Positions 1 to 17,666 of a stretch of 17,666 bases of DNA are shown here, piece by piece. The notes below the pieces were generated by a model. The model was not told where the DNA came from. It searched no databases and worked only from the letters and a program-made list of their open reading frames with translations. Made by a program: the position numbers and the translations under genes. Source of the DNA: Trichoplax adhaerens (lineage: Eukaryota > Animalia > Placozoa); the NCBI RefSeq assembly GCF_000150275.1, contig NW_002060991.1, forward strand, positions 23,589-41,254. The letters run 5' to 3'. The stretch's first letter is position 1, and each line of letters starts with the position of its first letter.

Positions 1-61
1 CTTCGTCAGCAAGGTGCATAGCCCACCCAAGACTGTGTGATCAAATCGAGTATCTCATTCT

Positions 62-285
62 AGATAGAGAAGACTGGACCACGCGAAAATAATAATATAA
101 AAAAAATCATTTAAAGAAAAAAAAGAGCCGTCGGCTTAAAAATTTTTTATATATTTCTTTGGCATATATGCTTACGCGCGCGAGAAGAAATGTAAAAAAA
201 ACTCCTGAGCCGACTATTTATTTTTTAATTCTCTTAGTTAGTTATTATATACGCGATTCGCGATTGGTCCAGGTCTCCTCTATCT
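62..285. repeat. Long imperfect terminal inverted repeat / fold-back hairpin
   Basis: AGATAGAGGAGACTGGACCA (62-81) pairs with TGGTCCAGGTCTCCTCTATCT (265-285, one extra G). GTCGGCT (130-136) pairs with AGCCGAC (208-214). TTTTTTATATATTTCTT (~143-159) pairs with AAGAAATGTAAAAAAA (~185-200). The tip holds palindromes GCATATATGC (162-171) and CGCGCGCG (175-182). Confidence 0.85.
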
Positions 286-304
286 CTAATAAATCTAAAT
301 AATC

Positions 305-1716
305 TGTGAAGTTTATAGTCTATGTGGAACATACATTATAAATTATGTGGAACATTTGCAATCGAATACTCAATAATATAAGACTGATTATCCGGTTTAT
401 CTTAGAAGACTCGATTTTCCCGTATATCCATGTTCCACATAGATTATGAACTTTAATCTAATCTGATTATCCGGTTTATCTAAGCCGTTTTCGACTGTTT
501 ATATGAGGGGTAATATTTGAGATTGTGTGAACAGATATTGTGAAGTTTATAATCTATGTGGAACATAGATTATAAACTATGTGGAACATACATTATAAAC
601 TATGTGGAACAAACATTATAAACTATGTGGAACATACATTATAAACTATGTGGAACATTGCTAAAATTGACGGTGAATAGGGAATTGATCAAAATTAAGA
701 AGGCAAAGTGGAACATAAATAATTATGAAACTATGTGGAACATTTAGAGTTATAAACTATGTGGAACATTCAGAATCATAAACTGTGTGGAACACGCAAG
801 ATAGGAGATTCGGATGGATGTGGAATGTTTATGTGTAATTTCAAAGTTTATAATCTATGTGGAACATACATTATAAATTATGTGGAACATTTAGAAATGG
901 AACACTTGATAGGGTTTTGATCAAAAATAAGCAGGTAAATTTTTTGGTTAAGCTAGTACGATATTGCCTAATCTGTTAGATAGGTCGTTTGTACAAACCA
1001 AGTAGGCAAATTTTATGTGAATATTGTGCGATATTCCCTAATATTAGAGCTAGGAGTAAAAACTATGTGGAACATAAATAATTATGAAACTATGTGGAAC
1101 ATTTAGAGTTATAAACTATGTGGAACATTTAGAATCATCAACTGTGTGTAACACGCAAGATACGAGATTCGGATGGATGTGGAATGTTTATGTGTAATTT
1201 CAAAGTTTATAATCTATGTGGAACATACATTATAAATTATGTGGAATATTTAGAAATGGAAGACTTGATAGGGATTTGCTCGGAATTAAGGTAGGTAAAT
1301 TTTGGGTGAATATTGTGCGATAATCCCTAATCTAAGTGGGGAGATAGGATTTGATGAAAATTAAAATAGGCAAATTTTGGGTGAATATTGTACGATAATC
1401 CCTAATCTAGAATTTAAAACTATGTGGAACATGTAGCATAGATTTGGATAGAAAGATTCAAAACTATGTGGAACATATCACCACCGTAAAGTATGTGGAA
1501 CATAGGATCGGATAGATTAAAGCTATGTGTGAAGATAGAGAATTGATAAAAGTGTTAATAGGCAAAATATTGTGTCATATTCCCTAATCAGGATTCAAAA
1601 CTATGTGGGATATTCAAAACTATGTGGAACATTTAAAACTATGTGGAACATTCTAAAATATGTGGAACATTCAAAACTATGTGGAACATGCAACTGTCAT
1701 AAACTATGTGGAACAT
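305..1716 (+). repeat. Subterminal array of (CTA)TGTGGAACA repeats
   Basis: About 24 exact forward TGTGGAACA copies by manual count, plus variants and one inverted copy (TGTTCCACATAG, 432-443). Five copies are in 23-bp tandem register (TATGTGGAACA at 555, 578, 601, 624, 647); another tight cluster lies at ~1600-1716. Confidence 0.95.
708..1278 (+). repeat. ~210-bp direct duplication (708-919 / 1067-1278)
   Basis: Near-identical blocks offset by 359 bp, from GTGGAACATAAATAATTATGAAAC to ACTTGATAGGG(T/A)TTTG, with a few substitutions. Confidence 0.9.
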
Positions 1717-2010: not shown

Positions 2011-2191
2011 ACGTACAGAGAAATGAACTTGTCCAGACGTGCGGACAAGTTTAAGGATAATTAAGTTAAAAACTATCATTTAAATCTCTTTGCCTCGTAC
2101 AGAGACACGTACAGAGAAATGAACTTGTCCAGACATGCGGACAAGTTTAAGGATAATTAAGTTAAAACTATTATTTGAATTTCTTGGCCTC
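2011..2191. repeat. ~86-bp direct duplication, each copy with a 9-bp stem hairpin
   Basis: ACGTACAGAGAAATGAACTTGTCC...GCCTC at 2011-2096 and 2107-2191. Each copy contains AACTTGTCC-N8-GGACAAGTT. The second copy overlaps the last codons of the 282-aa ORF. Confidence 0.9.
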
Positions 2192-3019
2192 TTTAGGATG
2201 ATTTCTGAAATATCTGAGTACTGTTTTTACGTTCTTAGTAAACCATTGAAAAGGCAAATTGCACTGTGTAACCTTGGGATATTTCTCGAAGCTGTCATAA
2301 AAGTTGATGTACTCGTGTGCACGACTCTTCTTCACATGGCAATTGGAATTTATCCACTCGTTGAAGTTTCCTGAACCGTACCTCTTTTCGAGAGCGAATA
2401 CAGCTTTGGCCTCATACAAATAACGGCCGTAACGGAAGGCGATGTATAAAATGAACCTATCATTTGTTTGCATCCTTTGTTCACATTCATCTATTTTCGT
2501 TTTGCAATCATCTAATGTTTTCGGTTGCACACTTAGATCAGACAGAGTCCTGATTAAACCATGAGTTGCTGGTTGCCACTTCTCATGTAACTCCTTAATA
2601 ATTTCTGATTCCTGACTTCCACTGCTAGTTCTTTTTCGTTTAGTCTTTTCAATAGGCACATTAAGAAATGATATTCTGGGTATTTTAGGGATATCATCTG
2701 TGTTTATCTCCGGGAAAGCAGTTTCTAGCTTTCTCATAACTTCACTATCATTATTCATCAAGGAAACATACACATTATTGTTGTGTTTAAGACATCTTAC
2801 ATACAGATCTATCCAATACTTCGCGTATCCATGTATTGCTTCATTTACGATTTTTACCATATGGTGTGTGTCGTCAGTGCCTAAATAGTTCATATTTTGA
2901 AAAACAAAAAAGCTTTCTTTAATTCTGTCATAGTCTATTGATTGAACAGAATCCATCTCCATTTGTTCGTCATCATTCTCTTTTTTAAAAAGTACTTGAA
3001 GTGCTGTTTCATCATCCAT
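2171..3019 (-). CDS. Hypothetical protein, 282 aa; C-terminal helical domain resembling DUF3102-type DNA-binding domains
   Basis: Long ATG ORF. NLS-like KTKRKR. The pattern G-x2-L-x-EAK...F-x2-W...SRA-x2-Y is reminiscent of DUF3102 (recognised by eye only). Confidence 0.6.
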   Translation of the reverse strand: MDDETALQVLFKKENDDEQMEMDSVQSIDYDRIKESFFVFQNMNYLGTDDTHHMVKIVNEAIHGYAKYWIDLYVRCLKHNNNVYVSLMNNDSEVMRKLETAFPEINTDDIPKIPRISFLNVPIEKTKRKRTSSGSQESEIIKELHEKWQPATHGLIRTLSDLSVQPKTLDDCKTKIDECEQRMQTNDRFILYIAFRYGRYLYEAKAVFALEKRYGSGNFNEWINSNCHVKKSRAHEYINFYDSFEKYPKVTQCNLPFQWFTKNVKTVLRYFRNHPKEAKKFK

Positions 3020-3178: not shown

Positions 3179-4288
3179 TTAAACATTATTCAAATCTTCG
3201 ATAGGAATCCATGAATTAAAATTATTAGAATAGCCCTTCCATTTAACTAATGCTAATCTCTTCTTTTTATCTTTCCTGATTACCCTTTCAATGCGATATT
3301 TATCTTGTTTAGTTTTCTGCAATTCAGGCTCATAAAATGATCCTTCAATAGGTTCATCATTGAGATCTTTCAACTTATATGTAATAGGATCGGTTTGCTG
3401 GATTGATTCTATAACAAAAATTTCCTCTGTCCAATTGGGCGTGTAACCCTTGTCAAACACTTTTCTTTTATACTTTGAAATTCGCACTCTGTCACCAACT
3501 TTAAATTTCGTTTTTTTACTTAAAGATTCAATGTTTCCATACAAATTGTGCCATGTTTGAATCTCATTTACTATCTTACTACCTTCCACTGGAGTCATTT
3601 TGATACTACTGTGTTCCGAATTATTATACTGTTCAATGAGTTTCTGTAAAATATCAATGTATTTGTTAGTATTTTTGGCGCTAAAATGTTTCCACATTCG
3701 TTCCTTCAACGTTCTGTTAAATCTCTCAATAACAACTGCTTTTCCTTCATTATACGTACTGTAGCGCTCAATATTACAATCGTTCAACATCTTGTCAACA
3801 ACTCTATTATAAAACTCGGATCCTTGATCAACCCATAACTTAATTGGCTTTCTATGACTAGATTTAATGATCTTATCAAATGCTTCAGCTATACTATTAC
3901 CTGTTTTATCTTTTACAAGTACACTCCAAGCATATTTACTAAAAATGTCAATTACGTTAAGTAAATATTTGTAACCACTATTGTATTTTGCAAATTCCTG
4001 CATATCAACAAGATCAGCTGACCAAATGTCATCAATTCCATTCACTCTTACACGACGCTTAGGAAAGTTCCTTCTGATTGGTTTATGCAGTTCATTAGCT
4101 AATTGAGTAGACCAATCGACATCTTTATTACCAAAGCCTGTAATACTTTTATCAAATCTGGCCTTGATAGCACCACACGAAATACACTTACTCTTTACAA
4201 TTATTCTATTATTTTCGGTTTCCACATGTAATATACTATCAGGAATAGAATCAGTATATTTTCTTTCTCGAATGCAATATGACAGCAT
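3179..4288 (-). CDS. Retroviral-like (rve) DDE integrase with C-terminal chromodomain (Polinton c-integrase)
   Basis: WSADLVDM, LWVDQGSEF and VIERFNRTLK give D,D(33)E. Also FKVGDRVRI...KGYTPNW and a chromodomain YRIERVI...LVKWKGY...NSWIP. The first ATG is at 4288 (the track starts at an upstream TTG, 4321). Confidence 0.96.
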   Translation of the reverse strand: MLSYCIRERKYTDSIPDSILHVETENNRIIVKSKCISCGAIKARFDKSITGFGNKDVDWSTQLANELHKPIRRNFPKRRVRVNGIDDIWSADLVDMQEFAKYNSGYKYLLNVIDIFSKYAWSVLVKDKTGNSIAEAFDKIIKSSHRKPIKLWVDQGSEFYNRVVDKMLNDCNIERYSTYNEGKAVVIERFNRTLKERMWKHFSAKNTNKYIDILQKLIEQYNNSEHSSIKMTPVEGSKIVNEIQTWHNLYGNIESLSKKTKFKVGDRVRISKYKRKVFDKGYTPNWTEEIFVIESIQQTDPITYKLKDLNDEPIEGSFYEPELQKTKQDKYRIERVIRKDKKKRLALVKWKGYSNNFNSWIPIEDLNNV

Positions 4289-4301: not shown

Positions 4302-4769
4302 TTATTTAATAAAATTAGCAAACTGTTTTATCAACCGCTCATTAAAAGTTGTCGGTTTTTGTTCATAGTCTAGTAAAATATCAAGAGGTTTATTATTGTA
4401 ATAACGTTTTATTAAATAGTAACAACAATAATATCCACACATAACTGAATTGATGTTTTGTATTTGTGATCGATTATACACTATCCCTTTCTTAGCTGTT
4501 TTTAAATATGATAGTATTTCACTTGGAGGATATAATCCAAATGAATCAAAATACTCAACATCATTGCTGTGTAGGTCACAATAATAACAAACCCAATGTG
4601 TTCCTGGTCCCGCAAAATAATCCTGCATGTTAACTACTCCACACTCACTTTTCAACATAGCCTTGGGTAGCATGTCTTTTGAAGAAACACCCCGAAAGTT
4701 TTTTATCTTATATTTCTTCATGATGTGATCAATTTCGATATTACTTAATGGTTTTATCGTTGTATCCAT
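4302..4769 (-). CDS. Adenain/Ulp1-like cysteine protease (virion maturation protease)
   Basis: GTHW (H58), YFDSFG (D75) and QIQ...MCGYYC (Q104, C111): catalytic order His-Asp-Gln-Cys, typical size. Confidence 0.95.
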   Translation of the reverse strand: MDTTIKPLSNIEIDHIMKKYKIKNFRGVSSKDMLPKAMLKSECGVVNMQDYFAGPGTHWVCYYCDLHSNDVEYFDSFGLYPPSEILSYLKTAKKGIVYNRSQIQNINSVMCGYYCCYYLIKRYYNNKPLDILLDYEQKPTTFNERLIKQFANFIK

Positions 4770-5629: not shown

Positions 5630-7039
5630 TTATACAATAACATTCATTCTTCCTCCTAATCCATGTAGTTGCAAATATCTATCAGTCAAGACAACTGCAT
5701 AAACATAATATGGTACATCATTACTGTTATTATTGATACTTTTAAAATTTTTCCCTAATGTCCATTTTACTTCAATATCTGCTGGACTATTTTTTAATCG
5801 TTCATTATGCTTAGATACATCGAAATGGAATATAGGATACAAATTTGCCCAATCTTCAGCAGATAACTGTGAACCAGTATCTGTATCTTGATATTTATGG
5901 ACTGCCTCCATAAACATCATATAAGGTCGACTATAATTTCTATTCGACGGATGAAAGTTACATTCTATCTCTCTTTCAGTGTATTGAATCGAGTTTATTC
6001 TAGCTGAAATACGTCTTACATCTGCATTATCAAATATCATGTTATTCATCGTTTGATTATTTTCTCGTTCAGTAGATTGAAATACAATGAAAATATGACG
6101 TGGTAATTCTGTTCCAGGCTGTGTAGTAATTCTCCAGGTAGGAGATGTTTGATTAGCTGCATATTGTGTCATATAAACTTTAACTTGCTCAAAGTAAAGA
6201 TTACTAATGTGTCCACTAACAAGTTTGGCCTCTAACTGGCTAGCTACTTCTAATGATGGAGTTACTTTAGGCATCCACATTGAAACATGTGATATTTTAA
6301 ATTTTCCGTCATCAATATTACTATCTTTTAAAATGTAGTTAGCTGTGGCAGCCCTATCGAGTTGTAAAGTATGTTTAACACCTCTAAATACTGTATCGAC
6401 ATCTTTACAGAATCCAAATATAGAACTTAGAGGTATTAAAAGTGATATTTGTTTATCACCTGTTGTTAATAGTTGTCTTGCATGAAATCCTCTGTTATAT
6501 TGAGGATTTGTGACTAATTTCATATCTCGAATTTGTTTAGCTTTTACAGTAACAACATCACTAGCTATGCTCACTGGGAATGACTCTGTCATATCAAATT
6601 CTGTCATATTTGGTTTACCTGTAGCTGTATCACGGTACCACAACATATTAGTTGCAATACTTCTACTGTAATCATCACTATACATGACTAAGTTTAAAAT
6701 TGTAGATGCATATGGGAGCCAATCGTTGATTTCTTCAACCGTATGATTATTAATTTGATATTGAGCACTTCTAAAAAGTGATAAGCCGTTATTCACTAAT
6801 GTTACAGCATCATCTGCATTATACAATGATCCACTATCTTTCGTTAAGTTTCCTCGTATTTCTATTACTGCTTTATGAGGCAATAGATAGACATCTTCAT
6901 CTCTAGTTTCAATCAAATAACTTCCTTTATCCATATCAGTATCTCGTGGCAGATACTCTATATATTCAAATTCTACAATTGAATTGTCTGCATGATTAGG
7001 CTCATCTATTCTTAGATATTGACTCACTAATTCTGACAT
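5630..7039 (-). CDS. Major capsid protein (double jelly-roll)
   Basis: 469 aa, beta-rich. Motifs seen in Polinton MCPs: NNGLSLF, IPLSSIFGFC, PRHIFIVFQ, YPIFHFDVS. Position within the morphogenetic cluster. Confidence 0.88.
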   Translation of the reverse strand: MSELVSQYLRIDEPNHADNSIVEFEYIEYLPRDTDMDKGSYLIETRDEDVYLLPHKAVIEIRGNLTKDSGSLYNADDAVTLVNNGLSLFRSAQYQINNHTVEEINDWLPYASTILNLVMYSDDYSRSIATNMLWYRDTATGKPNMTEFDMTESFPVSIASDVVTVKAKQIRDMKLVTNPQYNRGFHARQLLTTGDKQISLLIPLSSIFGFCKDVDTVFRGVKHTLQLDRAATANYILKDSNIDDGKFKISHVSMWMPKVTPSLEVASQLEAKLVSGHISNLYFEQVKVYMTQYAANQTSPTWRITTQPGTELPRHIFIVFQSTERENNQTMNNMIFDNADVRRISARINSIQYTEREIECNFHPSNRNYSRPYMMFMEAVHKYQDTDTGSQLSAEDWANLYPIFHFDVSKHNERLKNSPADIEVKWTLGKNFKSINNNSNDVPYYVYAVVLTDRYLQLHGLGGRMNVIV

Positions 7040-7063: not shown

Positions 7064-7579
7064 TTAAATTATACGTTCAAATCCCTTACCAGTCTTAACA
7101 CCCGAACCAGATAAAATATTTGATAGTATAGCTCGAGATTTATCATTCAAAACTTTTCTAACTTGTGGATTGGTCGATAAATTAGTGACGTTATCTTTGA
7201 TTCGATTTCGGAAAGTCTGCATTAAATTTTTAGTAGTTTTCTTATCAGCCTTTTCAATTTGCTTGATGACCGCTTTATCTTCATTTATAATATTTTTTAC
7301 TACCTGATCACCTAATTTCTTCGCTTGCGAAGTTATTGTTTGTTTACTAGCTTGGATTGCCTTATCGCCTAGCTTCTTCGCTTGCGACGTGATTGTCTGT
7401 TTACCAGCTTGGATTGCCTTATTACCTAGTGGTTTTAAAGCCTTTTTAATAGGTGTTATCTTATTCTTAACAATTTTGCTACCTATCGAAATAACTTTCT
7501 TAGCGCGATCAAATAGATTACCCAATAAATTACCACCAATAATTTTTTTCTTGAAATATTGTTCTCTTTGTAATAACAT
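7064..7579 (-). CDS. Basic virion protein, probable membrane-lytic (pVI-like) precursor
   Basis: IIGG followed by an amphipathic helix NLLGNLFDRAKKVISIGSKIV, an internal 19-aa repeat, and C-terminal LSGSG. ATG at 7579 (the track uses the TTG at 7582). Confidence 0.6.
   Translation of the reverse strand: MLLQREQYFKKKIIGGNLLGNLFDRAKKVISIGSKIVKNKITPIKKALKPLGNKAIQAGKQTITSQAKKLGDKAIQASKQTITSQAKKLGDQVVKNIINEDKAVIKQIEKADKKTTKNLMQTFRNRIKDNVTNLSTNPQVRKVLNDKSRAILSNILSGSGVKTGKGFERII
7308..7429 (-). repeat. 57-bp intragenic tandem repeat (2+ copies; LG[ND]KAIQA[GS]KQTITSQAKK)
   Basis: CCTA register at 7311, 7368 and 7425; differences are mostly synonymous. Confidence 0.9.
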
Positions 7580-7647
7580 CAATATATATATATATTATTT
7601 TATTTTACCCACAAGAAGTATTAATTGTTTATATCAGGTCCTAATAT

Positions 7648-7959
7648 TCAATCTACTACAATATGTACGTATCTCGATGTAAAATTTCTATACTCTTTTT
7701 TCTTTAAGAAATCAACATAAAAGGCTTTATCATCACTCATATATATATATCCTGATGGCGTCCTCTTTTTTTTTAGAACTTCCATTAGAAAGGTATCTCC
7801 ATTGTGACGCTTAAGTAGAACTATATCCTTATTACTCTTTCGTATTAATTTATTCTTGAGAAATTGAATAACAGTCTGAATCATACTTCTTAAGCGGTCA
7901 ATAAAGTAATGCAGTGGATTGCCAGTGTTTTTTTTATCAGATTTTTTTCCTCGCATCAT
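7648..7959 (-). CDS. Hypothetical basic protein, 103 aa
   Basis: ATG ORF filling the gap in the co-directional structural cluster, preceded by a (TA)n tract like its neighbours. Confidence 0.65.
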   Translation of the reverse strand: MMRGKKSDKKNTGNPLHYFIDRLRSMIQTVIQFLKNKLIRKSNKDIVLLKRHNGDTFLMEVLKKKRTPSGYIYMSDDKAFYVDFLKKKEYRNFTSRYVHIVVD

Positions 7960-7984
7960 ATATATATATATATGTTATATTAAT

Positions 7985-8746
7985 TTATAACTCCTTGATG
8001 TGGAGGTAATAGGTAACTCGTTCGTTATTTAAGTCAACTAAATTACCATCTTGATCTGTTACTTTAAATGTAACACTATTTATTGCACTCATTACTTTCA
8101 TCGAATTGTACATTTTCTGAAATGGTCGTACTTGTAATAGACTACCTGGTGGGACATTTGGTGATGTACAATGTATCAAATCTCCACTCTTTCCATTGAT
8201 GTAGGAACCATCTACAAGACTACAATGTATTTCAATAGTGTTAATACTTGTTATGTTAACAATCTGATCGCTATGATGTTTTCCATTTCCAGATATTATC
8301 CTTGAATTAAAACCTAGGATATCTCTAAAAGTATTATCTATTGTGAAATCCAATTTGTAATTATTTTTTAATTCGATCTCAGACTTAAATGTATTATAAT
8401 TTGGTGAAATGTTAACATGAAACAAGTTTTCGTCTCCAGATGTATTGGCAGGGATGTAATCGTTATTTTCTTTCATGATATTTTGTATCGCTTTCTGAAT
8501 ATCGACTACATTATATGCTCCTGGAGGAATGATGGTATTTTTCCAAACTTTTCCGTTAAAATATTTAAATTTATTGTTCTTTGATGTAATATTGTACCAA
8601 GAATACCAAATTTCAGCAGCAATGAGAGCTACTTTATAAATCTTTTTTATGTCAAGTAACAGAGGAGGATTAAAATATGTCGTAAAATTTTCGTCTTTTC
8701 CTATTGCCTTTTTACTATCAAAGAATAATGTTGTCTCAAATACCAT
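7985..8746 (-). CDS. Minor capsid protein (penton, single jelly-roll)
   Basis: 253 aa. N-terminal FTTYFNPPLLL, IPPGAYN, ILGF, IHCSLV, and C-terminal VTDQDGNLVDLNNE..YLHI fit Polinton pentons. Confidence 0.85.
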   Translation of the reverse strand: MVFETTLFFDSKKAIGKDENFTTYFNPPLLLDIKKIYKVALIAAEIWYSWYNITSKNNKFKYFNGKVWKNTIIPPGAYNVVDIQKAIQNIMKENNDYIPANTSGDENLFHVNISPNYNTFKSEIELKNNYKLDFTIDNTFRDILGFNSRIISGNGKHHSDQIVNITSINTIEIHCSLVDGSYINGKSGDLIHCTSPNVPPGSLLQVRPFQKMYNSMKVMSAINSVTFKVTDQDGNLVDLNNERVTYYLHIKEL

Positions 8747-8758
8747 TATATTATAATG

Positions 8759-9889
8759 TTATATAAAACTATTATGAATCTTTTCATACTGTTCTTTAGT
8801 AATTATGTTATCATTATACAATATATCAATTATATTTATGGCCTCATTATTTAATTGTTGATTACTATTTCCTGCTTCCTTCGCTCCTAAAATTACCTCT
8901 AGTCGATTACATAACTGATCTGGATTACTATAGTGCTTATATTGTATTTTTTCAGTATTCGACGATTTATTGTCACGGCCAATCTTGGTTTTCATGCTTC
9001 TACTGTTCATAGGTACACCAGATAATTCCACAAGCTTAGTAAATAATTTTTGAGCCTTATCGCTATATGTCTTTTTAGGATTGTACCTCTTCGTTAATAA
9101 ATCATAAAATGTATTATCAAATTTCCTGCTAAGCACTTTTCGTCCATTGTGATCATAAGCTTCTAGTTTCATTTGTATCAGTTTATTTGGATCTATATAT
9201 AAATCACCAAAATACGAATTATTAGCTAATGAATAAGGATCTCTCATAGTATGTTTTACATTTTTTTTTATAGATATTCCGTACCCTGATTGTGATCCTT
9301 CTTCTCGTATTGGATCTAACTGTTGCAAATTCTTTTCACGAACTACTGCTAAATATTTACTTAGAGTTAGTTGTTCTTGTTTTACTATTTGGTATTTAAC
9401 AGAGTTATTTTTTCTAGATGCATGAGTAGCTTGTGCTGTTAAACTGTTAATTTTTCTTCTAATAGATTTTATATCTTGAGGTTTGCTTAATGTGGGATCA
9501 AAACCATTTTTTTTTATAGTCTCGATTTCTTGAGGGTTAAATCTTCCTTGAAGGCCATCTTGGGAATGACTGTCCAACCATTGTTGCACTGAACTGTCTT
9601 CAGACTGTCGTTGTGATATGGTACTACTAAGTGATTCAATATTACTAGATAATGCTTCTTGATTTTTTTGTAACTGCTCAAGAAGTTTATCCTGTCGATT
9701 ATCTTCTTTTTTTTGAACTTCTTCAATTTTCTTTACAACAGGTTTTTGTAATTTTGTAGTAGATTCTTGGAATGATTGCTCGTTTAATTTTTGGTTTAGT
9801 TGTTGCTGTTTTAATATTGATCTATTCTTAAGAAAAGTATTAATTACTCTCTTTCTATCTTCCACTGTCTCTATCGTGTCAAAAGGCAT
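8759..9889 (-). CDS. Polinton conserved protein (coiled-coil N-terminus), function unknown
   Basis: Gln/Lys-rich coiled coil, central QSGYG, and C-terminal Y-x-NP-x2-L-x2-RL...GAKEAGN, a motif I recognise from Polinton ORFs near the ATPase. Confidence 0.7.
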   Translation of the reverse strand: MPFDTIETVEDRKRVINTFLKNRSILKQQQLNQKLNEQSFQESTTKLQKPVVKKIEEVQKKEDNRQDKLLEQLQKNQEALSSNIESLSSTISQRQSEDSSVQQWLDSHSQDGLQGRFNPQEIETIKKNGFDPTLSKPQDIKSIRRKINSLTAQATHASRKNNSVKYQIVKQEQLTLSKYLAVVREKNLQQLDPIREEGSQSGYGISIKKNVKHTMRDPYSLANNSYFGDLYIDPNKLIQMKLEAYDHNGRKVLSRKFDNTFYDLLTKRYNPKKTYSDKAQKLFTKLVELSGVPMNSRSMKTKIGRDNKSSNTEKIQYKHYSNPDQLCNRLEVILGAKEAGNSNQQLNNEAINIIDILYNDNIITKEQYEKIHNSFI

Positions 9890-10075
9890 ATGTATATAGT
9901 ATATATATTAAAGTTAGATAAAATTACATATAATGTAAAAATATACTAAATATTTTATTCAAACTATATATAAGATTGTAATTTTGCAGTAAGTTACAGT
10001 AAAAATTTCGTAAGATAATGTAAAAAATATATCGTATTCATTTTACACTCTAGCATTTATCTTATAAGATATATA

Positions 10076-10750
10076 TTATGGTACATAGAAACCATCGAAT
10101 CCCTTACGATAAATTTCTGGAATATACTTTGTGTTTTTATCAATAACCATAAATGTGTATGGTTGTTCTGTTGCTTCTATGTAGATATTTTTAAACTCAC
10201 TTTTACTAATACCTTTGGCATGATCTTCTGTAATATTTCTAATATCTCTATTATCTAATCCACCAAACAGAATAAAGCATTTAGTATTTCTTCTAATATA
10301 TTTAGGAACATCATAGTAACTTTGGGTCAAGTAGATACAATTACAATTTTTGTTTCTACTTAAACTAAAATATTCCTTAATTTTGTTCATGTTTTTAGAA
10401 TCAATTTTTATATCATCGAAAACAATTACTTTCTGCATCTCTGAATCTAGCTCCTCTACTGGTATTACCTCTTCAGGATTCTCAATGCTCAATGTATAAT
10501 GTTCATCATCTAATTCACTATTTAACATATCATAGAATGACTGCAATAATTCATACTTTTCCTGATCTGGATTAATAGTGTATACAACACAATCATCATA
10601 GTTTAACCATTGCATCAACATATTCAGTAATAAATTTGTTTTACCTTGACCAGTACTTCCAACTATCAAATAGTGACAATCAGGTAATAGAAAGTGATGT
10701 TTATATATTACTCCAACTCCTTTTTTGTCGTCAAAATTGATTATATCCAT
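10076..10750 (-). CDS. Genome packaging ATPase (A32/FtsK-HerA superfamily)
   Basis: Walker A GSTGQGKT, Walker B VIVFDD, SRNKNCNCIYLTQSY and IRRN motifs; 224 aa. Confidence 0.95.
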   Translation of the reverse strand: MDIINFDDKKGVGVIYKHHFLLPDCHYLIVGSTGQGKTNLLLNMLMQWLNYDDCVVYTINPDQEKYELLQSFYDMLNSELDDEHYTLSIENPEEVIPVEELDSEMQKVIVFDDIKIDSKNMNKIKEYFSLSRNKNCNCIYLTQSYYDVPKYIRRNTKCFILFGGLDNRDIRNITEDHAKGISKSEFKNIYIEATEQPYTFMVIDKNTKYIPEIYRKGFDGFYVP

Positions 10751-10779
10751 ATTTTATATAATATATATGTATATTATAA
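10751..10779. promoter_or_regulatory. Putative 29-bp bidirectional TA-rich promoter
   Basis: Almost pure A/T spacer between the divergent ATGs of the ATPase (10750, -) and fibre-like (10780, +) genes. Confidence 0.45.
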
Positions 10780-11883
10780 ATGAGTTATACAATCTTTGGT
10801 ACTTTACATAATCAGCATAATGAGGTTATAAAAGTTCGTGGACTCAAAGGTAATGGATATAAAATTAATGATGATGGTGATTACGATTTAGAAAGCAAAA
10901 GATTGACGAATTTATCATCAAATGTAGTGGATGACTCAGATGCGACAAATAAACAATACGTTGACAGTAGAATTGATACAAAAGTTTCTAAATCAGGGGA
11001 TGTATTATATGGAAATTTGGATATGAATAAGAACTGTATCAAAAATTTACATGACATAGATCCGAATGATGACGGTGCAATTGCAATAAATAAAAGATAT
11101 CTAGAAACTTATTATCTTGATAAAAGGTCTTTTATGATGAATAAATATTTTTCTGGAATACCAGTTGAAGATTTGTCGTTATTTTTTTTACCTAATATTA
11201 ACTTATGCGAAGTTTACAAAAAAGATAAATGTATGAGTTTACTAGATCCTATCAATCAAATTAAATTAGTTCAAAATGTTAAATTAAAACAACCTTCTTA
11301 CTTAATTGATCAAGAACATATACCTTATATCGCATTTGACGGAAAAAATAATTCCATGGCAGGTGAATTAAAATATGAAACTATGAATCATCATGGGGCT
11401 ACTACGTTCTTCTTAGTTGTTGCTACTAAGGGATTAAAAAATCAAACTCAATTTAGCTGGAGCGTTAAGAATCGAAACGGTGGTTATAATATCAACAAGA
11501 GATTAGGAGTTCATTTGCCATGGTCTGATGGTACTACATATATAGATCATGGGTCAGTTAATAATTACAGAATGCAATATAAAGATAGTACATTAACAGA
11601 TGAGATGATTAATAAAATAGTTCTTTGGAGCTATAGATGCACTGGTAAAAGAGCATCGTTATGGTTAAATCAAAATCATCTATATTCTGAAGATGAAAAA
11701 CATATTTCATCTGATCTGTTTGATACAGGAATATTTACCCTAGGGAATGGTTATCATGTCTCAGAACATTGTAGTATGGATTTCTATGGTCTGTTATTCT
11801 ATAACAGAGCTTTGACTGATGAGGAAATGAATAAAATGCAAATATATTTGAGAACATTTTTCAAATTTAATTATGTGGATTAA
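10780..11883 (+). CDS. Putative fibre/receptor-binding protein with C-terminal ConA/LamG-like head
   Basis: Two fibre-shaft-like units (LTNL...DATNKQYVD; GNLDMN..IKNL...AINKRYLE). The beta-rich C-terminus has IAFDG, LWLN and YNRALTDEEM, typical of LamG-3-like domains. Confidence 0.65.
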   Translation: MSYTIFGTLHNQHNEVIKVRGLKGNGYKINDDGDYDLESKRLTNLSSNVVDDSDATNKQYVDSRIDTKVSKSGDVLYGNLDMNKNCIKNLHDIDPNDDGAIAINKRYLETYYLDKRSFMMNKYFSGIPVEDLSLFFLPNINLCEVYKKDKCMSLLDPINQIKLVQNVKLKQPSYLIDQEHIPYIAFDGKNNSMAGELKYETMNHHGATTFFLVVATKGLKNQTQFSWSVKNRNGGYNINKRLGVHLPWSDGTTYIDHGSVNNYRMQYKDSTLTDEMINKIVLWSYRCTGKRASLWLNQNHLYSEDEKHISSDLFDTGIFTLGNGYHVSEHCSMDFYGLLFYNRALTDEEMNKMQIYLRTFFKFNYVD

Positions 11884-11898
11884 TATTATAGACGCATA

Positions 11899-12396
11899 AT
11901 GGAAAACAAAGTGGATAACATATTTAACTTCAATAGTATATCTGATCAATTATCATCTGAAGAAATAGATTTCTTGAAAAAATTGTATGCTTACTATCAT
12001 AAGAAAACATGGTGTTATAAACGTGCATATAAATACCTTAAACATAAGGACTTATTTTTGAGTGTCTCTGCTATTTTCTTAACAGCATTAGGTGGAGCTG
12101 TATCAGCAGCAACAATAAATTTTATTCCCTTACCAACTATATCACTGGTAGGTATCGTCTTACATGGGTATAATAAAAAGAAAAATTATAAAAAAAGAAT
12201 AGAGCTATGTAAATTTGCTTATACAAGCTATCAAAAAGTTTTGATTGATTTACGAAGTTATTTAAGGGGAGATCAATATGATTCTGATCAGGTAATTCAT
12301 CATCTTAATTGGATAGATAAGGAAATAACAGATTTATGTCCTCCTATAGATGATTACTATAACAAACGCTATGATAAATATCATATTATTAATTAA
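11899..12396 (+). CDS. Small two-TM membrane protein (SLATT-like topology)
   Basis: Hydrophobic hairpin LFLSVSAIFLTALGGAVSAATINFIPLPTISLVGIVL flanked by basic helices. Confidence 0.65.
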   Translation: MENKVDNIFNFNSISDQLSSEEIDFLKKLYAYYHKKTWCYKRAYKYLKHKDLFLSVSAIFLTALGGAVSAATINFIPLPTISLVGIVLHGYNKKKNYKKRIELCKFAYTSYQKVLIDLRSYLRGDQYDSDQVIHHLNWIDKEITDLCPPIDDYYNKRYDKYHIIN

Positions 12397-12418
12397 TAGA
12401 ATCTTTCTATTGATTAAT
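12388..12418. terminator. 14-bp stem hairpin between convergent genes
   Basis: ATTAATTAATAGAA-TCT-TTCTATTGATTAAT (one T:G pair), overlapping the stop of the 165-aa ORF. The terminator role is inferred. Confidence 0.5.
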
Positions 12419-12461
12419 CATCTATGAAATGATTGAAAATTGTATGGCATAACATATATGT

Positions 12462-13067
12462 TTATGTCGATGGTAGAAATTCCCATCTATTCACCTCACA
12501 TACTGCTTTCCATATATTTTCATAATGGTTTAGTGTCGCCTTAGACTTTGGAAGTTTACATTGTGAAGCTATGTCAGCCCTATGCAATATAATAAGTAGT
12601 TTATGAAAGATATACATTGTATTAATATATCTCTTTCTATTCATCCCTTTTAATATTTCCGATAGCGATATATTAGCTTCTTCGAAGTATCTTAGAAACT
12701 CTCCTAGCTGAAAATCTTTTAATTGAAGTTGATTTAGCTTATTCATTATATGATATTTTCGATGATAAATACTACGTTTTTTCTTTACATACGTATGGTT
12801 ATATTCAGGTACAAAGATGTAACCGTAATGACATCCACATTTGATACATAAATATTCAGTCCCAGTTTGTTCTATAATAGTATCACATTTTCACAAGTCC
12901 ATGGTGTATTCTTAACATCAAAACGAGGACATTCACATCCATAATCAAATATTTCACCACATTTCAAGCAGAAATCATCAAGAGTAAATTTTTTTCTATC
13001 TTTCCTCGACGACTATTTAAAAGAATTAAGATCTGACTTTTAAAAAGTCAGATAATGGAAAATCCAT
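12462..13067 (-). pseudogene. VLTF3-like (poxvirus A2-type late transcription factor) gene, frameshifted
   Basis: C-terminus LPKSKATL...IWKAVC...WEFLPS is VLTF3-like. The frame stays open upstream of 12746 to 12890 (KCDTIIEQTGTEYLCIKCGCHYGY...RSIYHRKYHI). The adjacent frame continues with CLKCGE..CEC...WTC. Candidate start is the TA-preceded ATG at 13067. Confidence 0.7.
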
Positions 13068-13182
13068 TACATATAATGATTTACATACGATGTCGACGTA
13101 TCTGTCGTCATCAGATGAATCAATATCGTCATTCGAATTACTATCGTCTGGGATATCAGAATCATGATTAGATAAATCGTTA

Positions 13183-13503
13183 TTAATTTTCGGATGTAAA
13201 TTTTCTGCTTCTTTTTTTTTGGCTCTCTTTGAAACAACTATCTGGTATTTCATCAACATAATCGAATTTGTATTTCTTACCATCAACTTTAGATTTACCA
13301 GATTTACAGCGGTTAGTCTTATCACAAGACATTTTAATAATGCCACAATTAATACCTAACTTTTTTTGACAGTTATATATGGAATGATAATATGATACCT
13401 CATCTGTATCAATACAAGTTGCTTTTATCTTCTTCACATTCTCGTGATTTTTTGAAACAAATGAATAATCCCGGTTTTTTACTGACTTTGTACAATGTTT
13501 CAT
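13183..13503 (-). CDS. NUMOD1-like DNA-binding protein (no nuclease domain)
   Basis: KKIKAT..DTDEVSYYHSIY..QKKLGIN.GII...C...YKFDY matches the NUMOD1 pattern of HNH homing endonucleases. Probable start is the ATG at 13503 after TATATATAAAA (the track extends to 13542). Confidence 0.6.
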   Translation of the reverse strand: MKHCTKSVKNRDYSFVSKNHENVKKIKATCIDTDEVSYYHSIYNCQKKLGINCGIIKMSCDKTNRCKSGKSKVDGKKYKFDYVDEIPDSCFKESQKKRSRKFTSEN

Positions 13504-13653
13504 TTTTATATATATAGTGTTCATAAAATATTCTTTAAGCATTAGCTATGATACATTGAAATACATAATGATACACAATGTTTTTCAGTAAATTTACAAA
13601 GAAATTGCTTAAAGAAATGCTTAAAGAAATTTTTATATATATAATATATAGAA

Positions 13654-16600
13654 ATGCAAAAGAAGGAATTGAAAAAATTATCGAAAAAAGAGTTAACAAA
13701 CATTGTATCGAGTAGATCACATAACACCAAATCCACTAAACGTACTAAACCTATTAAATTAAAAGAAGGTTATGAGATTAATCCTACGACTGGTAGACAA
13801 ATTAAAATCAATGGTCCAACATATAGAAAGATCCATAATAAATCAAAAGAAGGTTATGTGATTAATCCTAAGACAGGTAGGCAAATTAAAATCAATGGTT
13901 CAACGTATAGGAAGATCCATAATAAATCAAAAGAAGGTTATGAGATTAATCCTAAGACAGGCAGATTTATTAAAATTGATGGTCTGGTTCATAGACGGAT
14001 GAGAAAAGAAATGCAACAAGAAATAAAAATGAAGGAGCCAGAAATATATTCTATGACCGTTTTGTTATTTAGACGAGTAGATGAATCTAGTAAGATGAAA
14101 AAAATTGCCTTCACAAGTAAGGATGGATATCGTTATATTTTGATTGCGAAACGTATTCTTAACATATCAATGAAAAAATGTATCGATCTCTATCTTAACA
14201 AACGAATTTACAGGAAAGAGGATGGTAAATATAACGAACAGTTCACTGAACTTATTGATCAATTGATATCTTCAATAGATTTTGAAGAATTATGGGATAA
14301 ATGTGGTCATTATACCGATTGTATTATAATAAAATCTGCTTCGAAATGTCCTAATCTGGGTGAAAATGTTGACGTATTAGAGGAGGAATTACATCTTACA
14401 AATACAGAAATGGGTGTTTATGATAAATATCTTAACTTTGATCTAAATCAAGAAGTTCTATCAGATACACGAGCTAATAGCTGTTTTGTGAATTTGATTG
14501 TTAGCAAATTTGAGGCTGCATTTGGTAAAGTTAGGAAAGATGGAACAAAGTATTATAGATTTAATCTGACTCATGAAAGCCTATGTGAGATTTGTGGTAT
14601 CAATTATCAAGAAGATAATATAGGCTTGTCTGTAAATAAATCACTTGCATTCTTTAAGAAATTTAGGATCGGATTATGTGTGTATGGGCCATTTGGACGA
14701 CTATTAAAGTACAGTCCAGAACATCCAAATAAAAAAATAAATCCGAGAAATTTGTACATCTATATTCACAACAAACATTGCTATGAAATCAATAATAATA
14801 TCAAAAAATTCGAACAGGTTGTTTGGCGACCAAATGATGATGTCTCATCTGAATTAAAATCTTTGAAGGTTTCAAATGAATACTATATCAGAGATACGAA
14901 TATCCACACAAATAGAGCACTATTTATTGATGACTGTGAACAGATGATAAGATATCTAGATGATAAAGATAATGATGAAATAAAACTTGTAACATTTGTA
15001 TATAACGAAGATACACTAGATACTTTCTTGTTTGAGATTATTGAGAAAATGAATTATACACCTGAGATTAATTTCAATTATGGTAAAATAATGACACTAA
15101 AATTAAAATATAACAAAATAATAGCAGTAATAACGGCTCCTGATATTAAACAAAATGATGTTGATATGGAAATTGACGAAAAAAGTTACGAAACATTTCA
15201 TAAAGTGGATGATGAATTTTACAAAGGTTTATTACAAAAAAATCATTTGTCGTGCTATAATCAGACTATTATGGACCTTGAAAATGTGTTGAAAATATCA
15301 CCAATGGGCGGTTATTTTGATAATTGCATGGTATATAATGAGCTGTTAGGAATAGATAGTAGAAAGGCTTATACTAGTGATTTTATGAACATTGAATTTT
15401 ATCCTGTCTTTAACCATTTCGATGTGTGGCAGAGTTACGATGGACATGCAGTTGAAGACTATACACAGTATATCGTTGAAACTAAACGTTGCCATCCTAT
15501 TCTGTTTAATGCAAAATTTTCTAGATGTTACGGGATAAAGTTAAATAAAATAAGATTTAATGATGTAGAAATTCTTTACTATAGAAGACCTTCGAATTTA
15601 GTCAAAAGTAATAGCGAGCACCTTGTGAAGGCTGTCTATGAATCTGACCTGCCTCTTGATTGTAAGAAATTCATCGTTAACAAAAATTTAGGGCTAATAG
15701 AAAAGAAGAGAAATGTAAAAACAATTACAAAGGTCTTTAAAAATTACGATGAGGCATTCTATTATCAAAACTCGTTAGATAATGGCCAGATTTATACGAT
15801 TACGGGAAACAGCATAAATACAGAATTGGAAGAGTTAGAAGAAGAAGAGAAGAATAAATTGTATTTGCTATGTATATCTGAAGAAAGAACTTTAATTAAT
15901 GGATTTTTACCAATTAAAGAACTTGTATATGATATCAGATCTATTAAAAATTATATGACGTATAAAAAATTAATTCGTGCTAATATTGAAGTTCGTGGCA
16001 TTAAGACTGATAGTCTGCTAATTGACAATAGTAGGGATAATAAATCCAAAGTGAAAAAGCTCTTTGATTTCAGCAATAAAATTGGCTGTTTTAAACTCGA
16101 GACATGTAATTATTTAATAGATAAGAAATTACAATGGATCGAAAATGAATTACCGCAAATTGCACAAATAACTATCACAGAGCATGAGATTAAAGATGAA
16201 AGAGACACGGATGAGATTAATAATGTGTTTAAAAAATATAACACATTTATTAAAGGATCATTACCTGGTGTTGGTAAAACAACTTGTGCCAAAATGAATC
16301 CGTATATAAAAACTCTTTTTGTTAGTCCTTATAATAAACTGTGCCAGGAGTTACGAAAAAGTAGTCACGATGCGGTAACTCTAAATATGTTACTTGGAAT
16401 TGGAATCGATGATAAACACATAAAAATGAAAAACTTTAACATTGAGCCATATGATTGTATCGTTTTTGATGAGATTTTATTATATAATCCCTATCAACTG
16501 TATTTAATTAAAATGTTCATGAAAAAGAATGCTGAAAAAAGATATTTATGTACTGGTGATGTTGATCAAAGAAAGCCATTTACTTTCGGTACAAACAATA

Positions 16601-17538
16601 TCAAAGATCAAAATAATTATCAGTTGTGGTGCTTAAATCAAATGTTCCCACATCAACTGACGTTAAGCGAAAATAAACGTTTGAATAAGAGCTCTGATAA
16701 GAGAAAGCTAATTGTGCTTAAGAGGGATATTTTTGATCTTAATAAGGACGTTATTTCTACTTTTAAACGCCATGGAATCAAAGTTGTTAAGACCATGAAA
16801 GAAGTAACAACGATAAAAAATATTTGTTTGTTTAATTTTAGGTGTGACCAGGTTAATAAACACGTCGCTAAGAATGTAGTCGAAAGAGCTGGATTTTATA
16901 GCGGTTTAGAACTTGTTTGTAAAAAGCACTATAAGAATAAAAATGATCGGCTGTATGTTAACTATCATTATGTTTTAAAATCGATTGGAGATAAGTATTT
17001 TGTCGTGAACGAGCCAGTTGAGAACAAAGATATTCGACTGGACGTTGATAAATTGAAATATTTCAAACTTCCGTATGCTAATACATGCGATTCAGTACAA
17101 CGTCTCACAATAAAGGACAAAATTACCATATTTGATTGCAATACGCCCTATGTGGATCGCTACTTTATTTGGACTGCATTAACACGAGGCACAAATTTAA
17201 AAAATGTTCAGATATATGAACATTCACCGGAAGAAATTATGTCTTTAAACGAATCTTGGGTAAAACTTTACTTTAAGAATAAGATAGAGGATTACAGATC
17301 ACAAGATAGGGCAGCGGGTAGAAAAAATGATAAGGATTACATAGATATTGATTGGATTCAGTTACAACTCGAAAAGTGCACGTCATGTCTTCTATGTAAT
17401 ACATTATTTGAAGCTATGATTAATCCGGATAATAACATTAATTCTAACATTACAGTTGATAGAATTGATAATAAACTACCACATGTTAAGAGTAATTGTA
17501 GGTTAATGTGCCTTGATTGCAATGTGAGAAAGCGTTAG
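13654..17538 (+). CDS. Multidomain replicase: repeats + OTU-like + divergent family-B DNA polymerase + SF1 helicase + HNH-like nuclease
   Basis: PolB-like motifs A (GID568SRKAYTS), B (K672FIVN676KNLG) and C (GIKTD786S). SF1 motifs GSLPGVGK875T, FD939EI, GDVDQ, ENKR, YANTCDSVQRLT, WTALTR. C-terminal CLLC...TVDRIDN..PH..SNC..MCLDCN. Confidence 0.85.
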   Translation: MQKKELKKLSKKELTNIVSSRSHNTKSTKRTKPIKLKEGYEINPTTGRQIKINGPTYRKIHNKSKEGYVINPKTGRQIKINGSTYRKIHNKSKEGYEINPKTGRFIKIDGLVHRRMRKEMQQEIKMKEPEIYSMTVLLFRRVDESSKMKKIAFTSKDGYRYILIAKRILNISMKKCIDLYLNKRIYRKEDGKYNEQFTELIDQLISSIDFEELWDKCGHYTDCIIIKSASKCPNLGENVDVLEEELHLTNTEMGVYDKYLNFDLNQEVLSDTRANSCFVNLIVSKFEAAFGKVRKDGTKYYRFNLTHESLCEICGINYQEDNIGLSVNKSLAFFKKFRIGLCVYGPFGRLLKYSPEHPNKKINPRNLYIYIHNKHCYEINNNIKKFEQVVWRPNDDVSSELKSLKVSNEYYIRDTNIHTNRALFIDDCEQMIRYLDDKDNDEIKLVTFVYNEDTLDTFLFEIIEKMNYTPEINFNYGKIMTLKLKYNKIIAVITAPDIKQNDVDMEIDEKSYETFHKVDDEFYKGLLQKNHLSCYNQTIMDLENVLKISPMGGYFDNCMVYNELLGIDSRKAYTSDFMNIEFYPVFNHFDVWQSYDGHAVEDYTQYIVETKRCHPILFNAKFSRCYGIKLNKIRFNDVEILYYRRPSNLVKSNSEHLVKAVYESDLPLDCKKFIVNKNLGLIEKKRNVKTITKVFKNYDEAFYYQNSLDNGQIYTITGNSINTELEELEEEEKNKLYLLCISEERTLINGFLPIKELVYDIRSIKNYMTYKKLIRANIEVRGIKTDSLLIDNSRDNKSKVKKLFDFSNKIGCFKLETCNYLIDKKLQWIENELPQIAQITITEHEIKDERDTDEINNVFKKYNTFIKGSLPGVGKTTCAKMNPYIKTLFVSPYNKLCQELRKSSHDAVTLNMLLGIGIDDKHIKMKNFNIEPYDCIVFDEILLYNPYQLYLIKMFMKKNAEKRYLCTGDVDQRKPFTFGTNNIKDQNNYQLWCLNQMFPHQLTLSENKRLNKSSDKRKLIVLKRDIFDLNKDVISTFKRHGIKVVKTMKEVTTIKNICLFNFRCDQVNKHVAKNVVERAGFYSGLELVCKKHYKNKNDRLYVNYHYVLKSIGDKYFVVNEPVENKDIRLDVDKLKYFKLPYANTCDSVQRLTIKDKITIFDCNTPYVDRYFIWTALTRGTNLKNVQIYEHSPEEIMSLNESWVKLYFKNKIEDYRSQDRAAGRKNDKDYIDIDWIQLQLEKCTSCLLCNTLFEAMINPDNNINSNITVDRIDNKLPHVKSNCRLMCLDCNVRKR
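13762..13995 (+). repeat. Three 84-bp (28-aa) repeats KEGY.INP.TGR.IKI.G
   Basis: Units start at 13762, 13846 and 13930; the third diverges at its end. NPxTGRxIKxxGxTY resembles the core of the NCLDV 2-cysteine adaptor motif but lacks the cysteines. Confidence 0.9.
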
Positions 17539-17666
17539 AAACGATAAAGATTTCTAAATTTGAAAGGGCATTTACTTTCTGTCCCCCTTTGGTATATCTT
17601 GTCTTGGTCCTTTCTTGCTTTCTCTACATTTCTTAATAGCAGCTATAGCTTGTGCTCATTTCATAT

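What the first reader, a model, noticed from the sequence alone, without database searches (positions are those of the whole stretch)
62..285. ~225-nt imperfect terminal hairpin with a two-armed (Y/T-shaped) tip
The arms pair in register across three blocks, with bulged AT-rich segments between them. The apex has two adjacent mini-palindromes (162-171, 175-182), and each arm has an internal mini-hairpin (AGCCGTCGGCT 126-136; CGCGATTCGCG 252-262). The shape recalls parvoviral ITRs, and the mismatched stem recalls poxviral telomeres.
Basis: partly seen in the sequence, partly recalled or inferred. Interest (0 to 1): 0.8.

Follow-up and report, generated by a model that had tools for sequence, protein, structure and literature searches.

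The report
Fold-back end of a placozoan virus
A 224-base stretch at the exact left end of a known virus-like element inserted in the genome of the simple animal Trichoplax is predicted to fold back into a long imperfect hairpin, which likely lets a released single strand prime its own copying, a way of starting replication not expected for this polymerase type.

Summary
The hairpin is real: DNA fold -36.9 kcal/mol, z -4.6, 0 of 200 shuffles, best of 581 windows. It is terminal: contigs of 4 of 4 runs place the element's boundary at 61/62, where pairing stops. The element is the named Trichoplax MELD virus (integrase 100%, replicase 98% identical), a polinton-like provirus with a Tlr1-type replicase: phi29-like polymerase, SF1 helicase, HNH-like domain. 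It is not a parvovirus or poxvirus.

The three helices hold. The Y tip is marginal, the two arm mini-hairpins do not form in the fold, and the AT-rich middle pairs no better than chance. No flip/flop form, no MITE-type empty site and no significant covariation were seen (contigs only). One distant relative (L076) has the same design in unrelated sequence.

Best reading (0.45): the flush 3' end self-primes on a released single strand and is resolved asymmetrically. Main rival: a protein-primed origin that the hairpin shields or rebuilds. Terminal palindromes and a hairpin-priming model were proposed in a 2026 preprint for protist virophages/PLVs, so this is a new variant: longer, imperfect, in an animal provirus with a protein-primed-type polymerase. 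The right end was not available.

The parts
1..61 (.). Flank outside the element (multi-copy target sequence)
   Evidence: Contigs of 4 of 4 runs cover 1-61 at depth 430-760 and continue into 95 letters that are not the element
62..285 (+). Imperfect terminal hairpin; first 224 nt of the element
   Evidence: boundary
62..87 (+). Outer arm, flush with the element end; pairs with 257-285
   Evidence: 25 of 29 columns complementary; most pair probabilities 0.8-1.0, range 0.5-1.0
130..136 (+). GC-rich middle helix, 5' side (pairs with 208-214)
   Evidence: 7 of 7 pairs, probability 0.87-1.0
143..159 (+). Tip-proximal helix, 5' side (pairs with 185-201)
   Evidence: 15 of 17
160..184 (+). Tip loop with two weak mini-palindromes (162-171, 175-182)
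   Evidence: pair probabilities about 0.63 and 0.45
257..285 (+). Inner arm: inverted near-copy of the element's first 26 nt; predicted template side of a fold-back primer
   Evidence: shared with a further contig family that has another interior
321..1714 (+). Subterminal array: 26 copies of a 10-nt motif in tandem units of 19-26 nt
   Evidence: 27 matches in the window against 1.3 expected, 26 of them here; TRF
2171..3019 (-). 282-aa ORF of unknown function next to the array
   Evidence: only a sub-threshold DUF3102 hit; no usable Atlas hit
3179..4288 (-). rve integrase with chromodomain
   Evidence: Pfam rve 1.6e-11, Chromo 2.8e-7; 100% identical to the Trichoplax MELD virus integrase
4302..4769 (-). 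Adenain-like maturation protease
   Evidence: Peptidase_C5 1.6e-4
5630..7039 (-). [quoted passage not shown]
   Evidence: DJR-like 8.9e-21
10076..10750 (-). A32-like packaging ATPase
   Evidence: Pox_A32 1.3e-5
12462..12746 (-). VLTF3-like protein
   Evidence: Pox_VLTF3 2.7e-7
13654..17538 (+). Tlr1-type replicase: TP-position domain, vOTU-type Cys/His dyad, phi29-like polymerase palm, RecD-like SF1 helicase, HNH-like zinc domain
   Evidence: 98% to 'S1H [Trichoplax MELD virus]'; fold to phi29 polymerase E 7e-8; RecD 8e-11; conservation; HNH-like fold, weak

Best explanation
The segment 62-285 is the left terminus of an integrated Trichoplax MELD (polinton-like) virus; as a single strand it is predicted to fold back so that the 3' end lies flush in a 25-pair stem, and it likely serves as a self-priming replication origin. 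Shown: the boundary, the fold, the gene set, one fixed orientation in the contigs seen. Inferred: when the minus strand is released (strand displacement by the polymerase-helicase, or excision), its 3'-OH pairs with 285 and is extended from 286 onward, giving a duplex closed at this end. The closed end or the head-to-head junction would then be opened by a nick on one side only, as at the left end of minute virus of mice, which keeps one orientation; the conserved HNH-like domain of the replicase is the candidate nickase. The opened form, with the whole hairpin spelled out at the end, is what the rve integrase would insert. The repeat array behind it would bind initiator or integrase.
For: Pairing starts exactly at the element's first base and stops there: primer-template geometry. 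Only 20 of 16,956 other 26-nt tiles have as good a nearby inverted match, all in the neighbouring repeat array. A distant relative with the same replicase and an rve integrase, L076, ends in a 111-nt imperfect hairpin with a perfect 22-bp outer stem (z -8.9, 0 of 200) and a read-through fold-back at the contig end, with no sequence likeness to this one (246 of 500 shuffles score as well). L076 and the window rank first and second of 176 locus ends folded. Further contig families in the same host runs keep the inner arm while changing what lies beside it. The HNH-like domain is not a sporadic insert in this clade: 68 of 80 metagenome loci match through residue 1289 or beyond, and its Cys/His/Asn/Arg residues are kept in 41-42 of 42 aligned proteins chosen for full coverage. 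The same model was proposed for protist virophages/PLVs (10.64898/2026.07.28.741278, section 7); single-orientation resolution is described for parvovirus left ends (PMC1185569 passages).
Against: The polymerase is of the protein-primed type and keeps the vOTU dyad (C277 99%, H375 100% of 97) and a TP-position domain with a tyrosine in 77%, so it may need no DNA primer. No flip/flop form was seen, which plain rolling-hairpin replication predicts. Sibling variation gives no statistical support for selection on pairing: 4 of 11 substituted positions are paired, against 104 of 229 positions overall. The HNH-like fold match is weak (PacI Z 5.9, rmsd 3.6, 90 aligned; Foldseek E 0.015), and PMC11071308 reads such domains as intein/homing relics. 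Only one clear outside example; its fold-back could be a library or assembly artefact and its true end is not proven. L098 is ambiguous. The right end is unseen.
Confidence: 0.45

Rival explanations
1. Replication is protein-primed as in polintons and adenoviruses. The hairpin acts on the displaced single strand as a local panhandle: it rebuilds a short duplex origin, or shields the 3' end from nucleases, or is a packaging/maturation signal, and it is not extended.
For: phi29-like palm, conserved vOTU dyad and TP-position domain (PMC11071308 section 10); one fixed orientation; purine-rich AG start as in polinton ends (recalled, from no call); mismatched poxvirus hairpins serve virion maturation (PMC8956199, title and abstract start only).
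Against: A flush paired 3'-OH with template beyond it is a ready primer and would have to be blocked; the TP-position domain is the least conserved part of the region 130-850 (mean top-residue share 0.31) and no priming residue is proven.
Confidence: 0.3
2. A relic: one ancestral fold-back (template-switch) duplication of the end, copied passively since and decaying fastest in its A/T runs; the inner arm may only add a second integrase-binding site.
For: The AT-rich middle pairs at chance level; no significant constraint among 11 variant positions; 10.64898/2026.07.28.741278 names accidental annealing as an alternative.
Against: Three near-perfect helices remain in register; the same design recurs with unrelated sequence in L076; the inner arm is kept across contig families.
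Confidence: 0.17
3. Symmetric rolling-hairpin or poxvirus-like telomere: ends alternate between flip and flop forms.
For: Overall shape; one X3 contig continues into other sequence right behind 286 and could be an inverted end against host DNA.
Against: 0 joints and no strand-change joint among the 8; X1 carries 117-348 as one unbroken contig; no Rep/HUH or resolvase among 15 ORFs.
Confidence: 0.05
4. An independent MITE of 224 nt that sits at the element's end by chance.
For: Near-perfect 20-26 nt inverted ends; the two bases on either side of 62-285 are the same dinucleotide.
Against: The unoccupied site runs from 61 into unrelated sequence, not into 286; no 61-286 joint; contig depth of the hairpin interior is not above that of the array behind it (a weak measure).
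Confidence: 0.03

Closest known systems
Trichoplax MELD virus (Starrett et al. 2021, PMC8502044; record DAC81756 / DAC81743 proteins)
   Same: Integrase 100% and replicase 98% identical: the same virus.
   Different: The paper calls the replicase S1H 'instead of a PolB'; 'hairpin' occurs 0 times in its text and in the one supplement held. The termini are not described in the passages seen.
Terminal palindromes of Halocafeteria seosinensis virophages and PLVs (10.64898/2026.07.28.741278)
   Same: Palindrome at the very end of an rve-integrated element; hairpin-priming model proposed (section 7).
   Different: There: found with at most 4 mismatches and a gap of at most 10, 52 nt in the figured subtype, protist host, linked to non-pPolB replicases; S1H/Tlr not mentioned in the main text. 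Here: 224 nt, three helices with a long unpaired middle, animal host, protein-primed-type polymerase fused to SF1 helicase. Figure 4A and supplements were not visible.
Tlr1 elements, transpovirons and PLVs with pPolB-S1H (PMC5499653, PMC11071308)
   Same: Replicase architecture TP-position/vOTU/palm/S1H/HNH; rve integrase and capsid genes as in Tlr1; linear DNA with inverted repeats. Tandem 19-mers at Tlr1 ends are recalled, not read.
   Different: No terminal hairpin is mentioned in the passages seen; priming is assumed to be by protein.
Parvovirus terminal hairpins (AAV ITR; MVM/LuIII left end)
   Same: Flush 3' fold-back with mismatches; a single orientation has precedent at protoparvovirus left ends (PMC1185569 passages).
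   Different: dsDNA polinton-like gene set; no HUH nickase or SF3 helicase found; tip arms marginal.
Poxvirus mismatched hairpin telomeres
   Same: AT-rich imperfect hairpin next to an array of short tandem repeats.
   Different: No flip/flop seen; no resolvase found; element integrates by an rve integrase; covalent closure untested.

Membership tests
Polinton-like virus with Tlr1-type pPolB-S1H | Polymerase palm of the protein-primed type fused to an SF1 helicase | tested here: met
   phi29 polymerase best PDB fold, E 7e-8; RecD E 8e-11; motif residues D568, K672, T785-D786 invariant
Polinton-like virus with Tlr1-type pPolB-S1H | DJR capsid and packaging ATPase | tested here: met
Polinton-like virus with Tlr1-type pPolB-S1H | vOTU Cys/His dyad ahead of the palm | tested here: met
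   C277 99%, H375 100% of 97 sequences; naming by analogy with PMC11071308
Polinton-like virus with Tlr1-type pPolB-S1H | Terminal inverted repeats at both ends and a target-site duplication | not testable with these tools
   Right end not in the window; no genome held
Canonical Polinton/Maverick | Stand-alone pPolB with exonuclease domain plus rve integrase | tested here: not met
   Integrase present, but the polymerase is the helicase-fused form
Parvovirus ITR | HUH (Rep/NS1) nickase-SF3 helicase gene | tested here: not met
   None among 15 ORFs scanned with Pfam; five of the longer ORFs have no firm family, so a very remote one is not excluded
Parvovirus ITR | Stable T/Y-shaped tip | tested here: inconclusive
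   Tip arms at probability 0.63 and 0.45
Parvovirus ITR / poxvirus telomere | Flip and flop isomers | tested here: inconclusive
   None seen in contigs of 4 runs, X1 unbroken across the inner junction; contigs drop rare forms and one X3 row is unexplained
Poxvirus telomere | Covalently closed end in the free genome | not testable with these tools
   Only integrated sequence and contigs, no raw reads of free DNA
MITE | Dispersed free-standing copies and an empty site joining the two flanks | tested here: not met
   Empty site leaves 61 for other sequence; no 61-286 joint
Virophage/PLV terminal palindromes (Halocafeteria type) | Palindrome adjacent to the insertion boundary | tested here: met
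Virophage/PLV terminal palindromes (Halocafeteria type) | Near-perfect palindrome (at most 4 mismatches, gap at most 10) in elements with non-pPolB replicases | tested here: not met
   Long unpaired middle; pPolB-type palm

The most novel reading that the evidence does not exclude
The pPolB-S1H-HNH viruses are a widespread group that has moved from protein priming to parvovirus-like hairpin self-priming while keeping a phi29-type polymerase, with the fused HNH domain as the end-resolving nickase in place of a Rep protein, and the integrase inserting the opened hairpin. This would be a working intermediate between protein-primed and hairpin-ended linear DNA viruses, present in an animal.
Probability: 0.2. 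Interest if true: 0.8.

Novelty: new variant of a known kind. Interest (0 to 1): 0.52.

Why it matters
How Tlr1-type polymerase-helicases start replication is open: the polymerase was first called inactive (PMC5499653), then predicted active and protein-primed with a variable TP-position domain (PMC11071308). A flush terminal hairpin in such an element gives a defined, short substrate on which priming and nicking can be assayed. It extends the terminal-palindrome observation from protist virophages to an animal provirus with a pPolB-type enzyme, against the preprint's link to non-pPolB replicases. It also suggests that long imperfect end hairpins are missed by strict palindrome searches and by short-read assemblies.

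Tried and rejected
No whole genome is held, so the right end, TIR and TSD were not seen. Rfam gave only generic sub-threshold hairpin hits (best E 0.03, 26.7 bits against a gathering score of 211): a miRNA or known RNA was rejected. Exact searches of viral contigs with the inner arm and with the L076 end found nothing; the integrase query found no viral locus. Two further alignments brought no new contigs. Most of the 176 locus ends folded are assembly breaks, not termini, so the lack of hairpins there says nothing; three further record ends showed none. L051 was rejected as a purine/pyrimidine repeat. L098's 127-nt inverted ends may be an assembler overlap, so its 42-nt hairpin (z -3.9 and -4.9) is not counted as terminal. 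An ungapped inverted-repeat scan missed the window's own hairpin and was dropped as insensitive. Changes on both arms in one X3 contig (144, 196, 199, with indels) lie in A/T runs whose register is ambiguous and were not scored as compensatory. Atlas look-ups gave no usable hit for the 282-aa ORF and only sub-0.9 leads for the C-terminal domain. Earlier findings of the scan: none returned. The original Tlr paper is not held. The fold searches named no terminal-protein match for residues 130-260, which were searched only as part of the larger model.

Full report
The observation. Window 55-295 folds as single-stranded DNA into one long hairpin: -36.9 kcal/mol on the plus strand and -36.2 on the minus strand, z -4.6 and -4.7, with 0 of 200 shuffles as stable. 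It is the best of 581 windows of 240 nt. Three helices carry it: 62-87 with 257-285, 130-136 with 208-214, and 143-159 with 185-201; 0, 1 and 0 of 300 shuffled arms do as well. The long A/T segment between the outer and middle helix pairs at chance level (27 of 48; 181 of 300). The four small palindromes exist as sequence. The two in the arms are not formed in the ensemble (0.001, 0.011) and the two at the tip are marginal (0.63, 0.45). The hairpin is real; its ornaments mostly are not.

What it belongs to. The window encodes an rve integrase with chromodomain, an adenain-like protease, a double jelly-roll capsid protein, an A32-like ATPase, a VLTF3-like protein and a 1294-aa replicase. The replicase is 98% and the integrase 100% identical to proteins named 'Trichoplax MELD virus', and the replicase cluster holds Trichoplax adhaerens and Trichoplax sp. 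H2 proteins. Starrett et al. (PMC8502044; passages and one supplement searched) list this virus as having an S1H gene instead of PolB and never use the word hairpin. A model of residues 130-850 (pLDDT 90) matches phi29 polymerase best (E 7e-8) and protein-primed viral polymerases in BFVD. The helicase is RecD-like. The C-terminal zinc domain is HNH-like, but only weakly: PacI Z 5.9, rmsd 3.6, 90 aligned; a nicking HNH at E 0.015. This is the Tlr1-type pPolB-S1H of PMC5499653 (passages) and PMC11071308 (section 10 and passages).

Is it terminal? No genome was held, so I laid contigs of four runs from four studies, out of 24 listed, on 1-900 and on 50-335. In 4 of 4 runs a contig covers 1-61 and continues into other sequence, and an X1 contig begins at the equivalent of 62. 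Complementarity ends at the same place: 62 pairs with 285, while 61/286 and 60/287 do not pair. The outer arm is thus the element's first 26 bases and the inner arm an inverted near-copy of them. Behind it lies an array of 26 copies of a 10-nt motif.

MITE: the unoccupied site does not join 61 to 286, and X1 carries 117-348 as one contig, so the inner arm stays tied to the array. Flip/flop: no joint at all and no strand-change joint among the 8; an inverted form would be expected to break the X1 contig at the inner junction. Contigs drop rare forms, 3 loose-end rows and 20 pieces were not shown, and one X3 contig leaves the window right behind 286, so this is not proof. Sibling copies: substitutions at 11 positions; 7 are unpaired in the window's fold, 3 lie in the A/T-run helix and 1 in the GC helix (only in one low-depth copy). 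With 104 of 229 positions paired, 4 of 11 shows no constraint. The variant at 254, common in three runs, falls in the stem of the 252-262 mini-hairpin, outside the main stem. A further high-depth family keeps arm 248-285 with another interior. The right terminus was not available.

Relatives. An alignment of the replicase fetched 9 viral, 80 (of 114) metagenome and 7 genome loci, and one more contig later. I folded both ends of the 87 loci of at least 1500 nt then held and of the window: 176 ends. The top two were L076 and the window; most other ends are assembly breaks. L076 has the replicase C-terminus (46% identical), an rve integrase, an A/T-rich stretch, and then a 111-nt imperfect hairpin with a perfect 22-bp outer stem (z -8.9), after which the contig reads back on itself. 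Its sequence is unrelated to the window's hairpin. L098 has a 42-nt hairpin at both contig ends, but its 127-nt inverted ends may be an assembly overlap. So: one good and one doubtful outside example.

Mechanism. The geometry is that of a primer on a template: the 3' end of the minus strand pairs flush with 285, and 286 is the next base to copy. I put 0.45 on self-priming of a released single strand followed by one-sided nicking, which would explain the single orientation; PMC1185569 (passages) describes asymmetric resolution and a flip-only report for protoparvovirus left ends. The HNH-like domain is the candidate nickase because it is constant in this clade (68 of 80 loci match through it; key residues in 41-42 of 42 proteins picked for full coverage). 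Against this, the enzyme keeps the signs of protein priming (vOTU dyad, TP-position domain), so a hairpin that rebuilds or shields a protein-primed origin gets 0.3, and a neutral fold-back relic 0.17. Folding is predicted; priming, nicking and any free form are untested.

What is known. A 2026 preprint (10.64898/2026.07.28.741278; section 7 and passages read, figure and supplements not visible) reports palindromes next to the TSD in Halocafeteria virophages and one PLV subtype, ties them to non-pPolB replicases and proposes hairpin priming. The idea is therefore in print. In searches and in the passages read from PMC11296320, PMC12747079, PMC2871265, 10.1101/2022.07.28.501842 and 10.64898/2026.10.13.758929 I found no terminal hairpin described for a pPolB-S1H element or for this virus; subscription papers and Repbase were not searchable. 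The AG...CT rule for polinton ends and the Tlr1 19-mers are recalled and come from no call.

Verdict. A real, previously unremarked fold-back terminus of a known virus: a new variant of a recently described feature, longer, imperfect, in an animal provirus, and paired with a protein-primed-type polymerase. Interest 0.52; the boldest reading (a hairpin-primed, HNH-resolved branch of pPolB viruses) has probability 0.2 and interest 0.8.

Noticed in passing
window 61/62 junction (table 7): The sequence that follows position 61 at the unoccupied site holds, two bases from the junction, an 11-nt reverse-complement copy of the element's first 11 bases (seen by eye in 4 of 4 runs). It may mean that the integrase is drawn to targets resembling its own end.
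   Followed up: partly
window 248-291: A high-depth contig family in X1, X8 and X10 shares arm 248-285 but has unrelated sequence inside it; X3 shows three other continuations behind 286, 290 and 291. Probably further virus families with the same end motif, or the unseen right end.
   Followed up: partly
window 321-1714: 26 copies of a 10-nt motif in 19-26-nt units, one copy inverted at 432-441 forming a second fold (426-453/543-570); a 267-nt duplication 708-974/1067-1333.
   Followed up: partly
window 2011-2071 and 2107-2167: 61-nt direct repeat (98% alike) ending 3 nt before the stop of the 282-aa ORF.
   Followed up: no
window 13505-13654; L011 2214-2363: AT-rich inverted repeat between the divergent 119-aa ORF and the replicase; a relative has one at the same place. 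Possibly a bidirectional promoter or internal origin.
   Followed up: no
window 17539-17666: No terminal motif or open frame after the replicase stop; the element's right end lies beyond the window or is lost.
   Followed up: partly
L076 2019-2188: 111-nt imperfect hairpin followed by a perfect 59-nt read-through fold-back with a 9-nt loop at the contig end: a closed end, a junction of two ends, or a library artefact.
   Followed up: partly
L098 1-17505: Linear element with a pPolB-S1H ORF (1382 aa) and a second large ORF (1476 aa, helicase-like by eye); no capsid-like ORF noticed; transpoviron-like.
   Followed up: partly
L095 about 7500-15800; L096: A low-GC island of about 8 kb with an intact pPolB-S1H ORF (1283 aa) inside a long contig of a bacterial MAG (Cyclobacteriaceae); a frameshifted relative near a contig end of a Balneolaceae MAG. 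Real insertion or assembly chimera not resolved.
   Followed up: no
window 13752-14003: Three 84-nt tandem repeats encode 2-cysteine-adaptor-like units (PF08793) at the N-terminus of the replicase.
   Followed up: no
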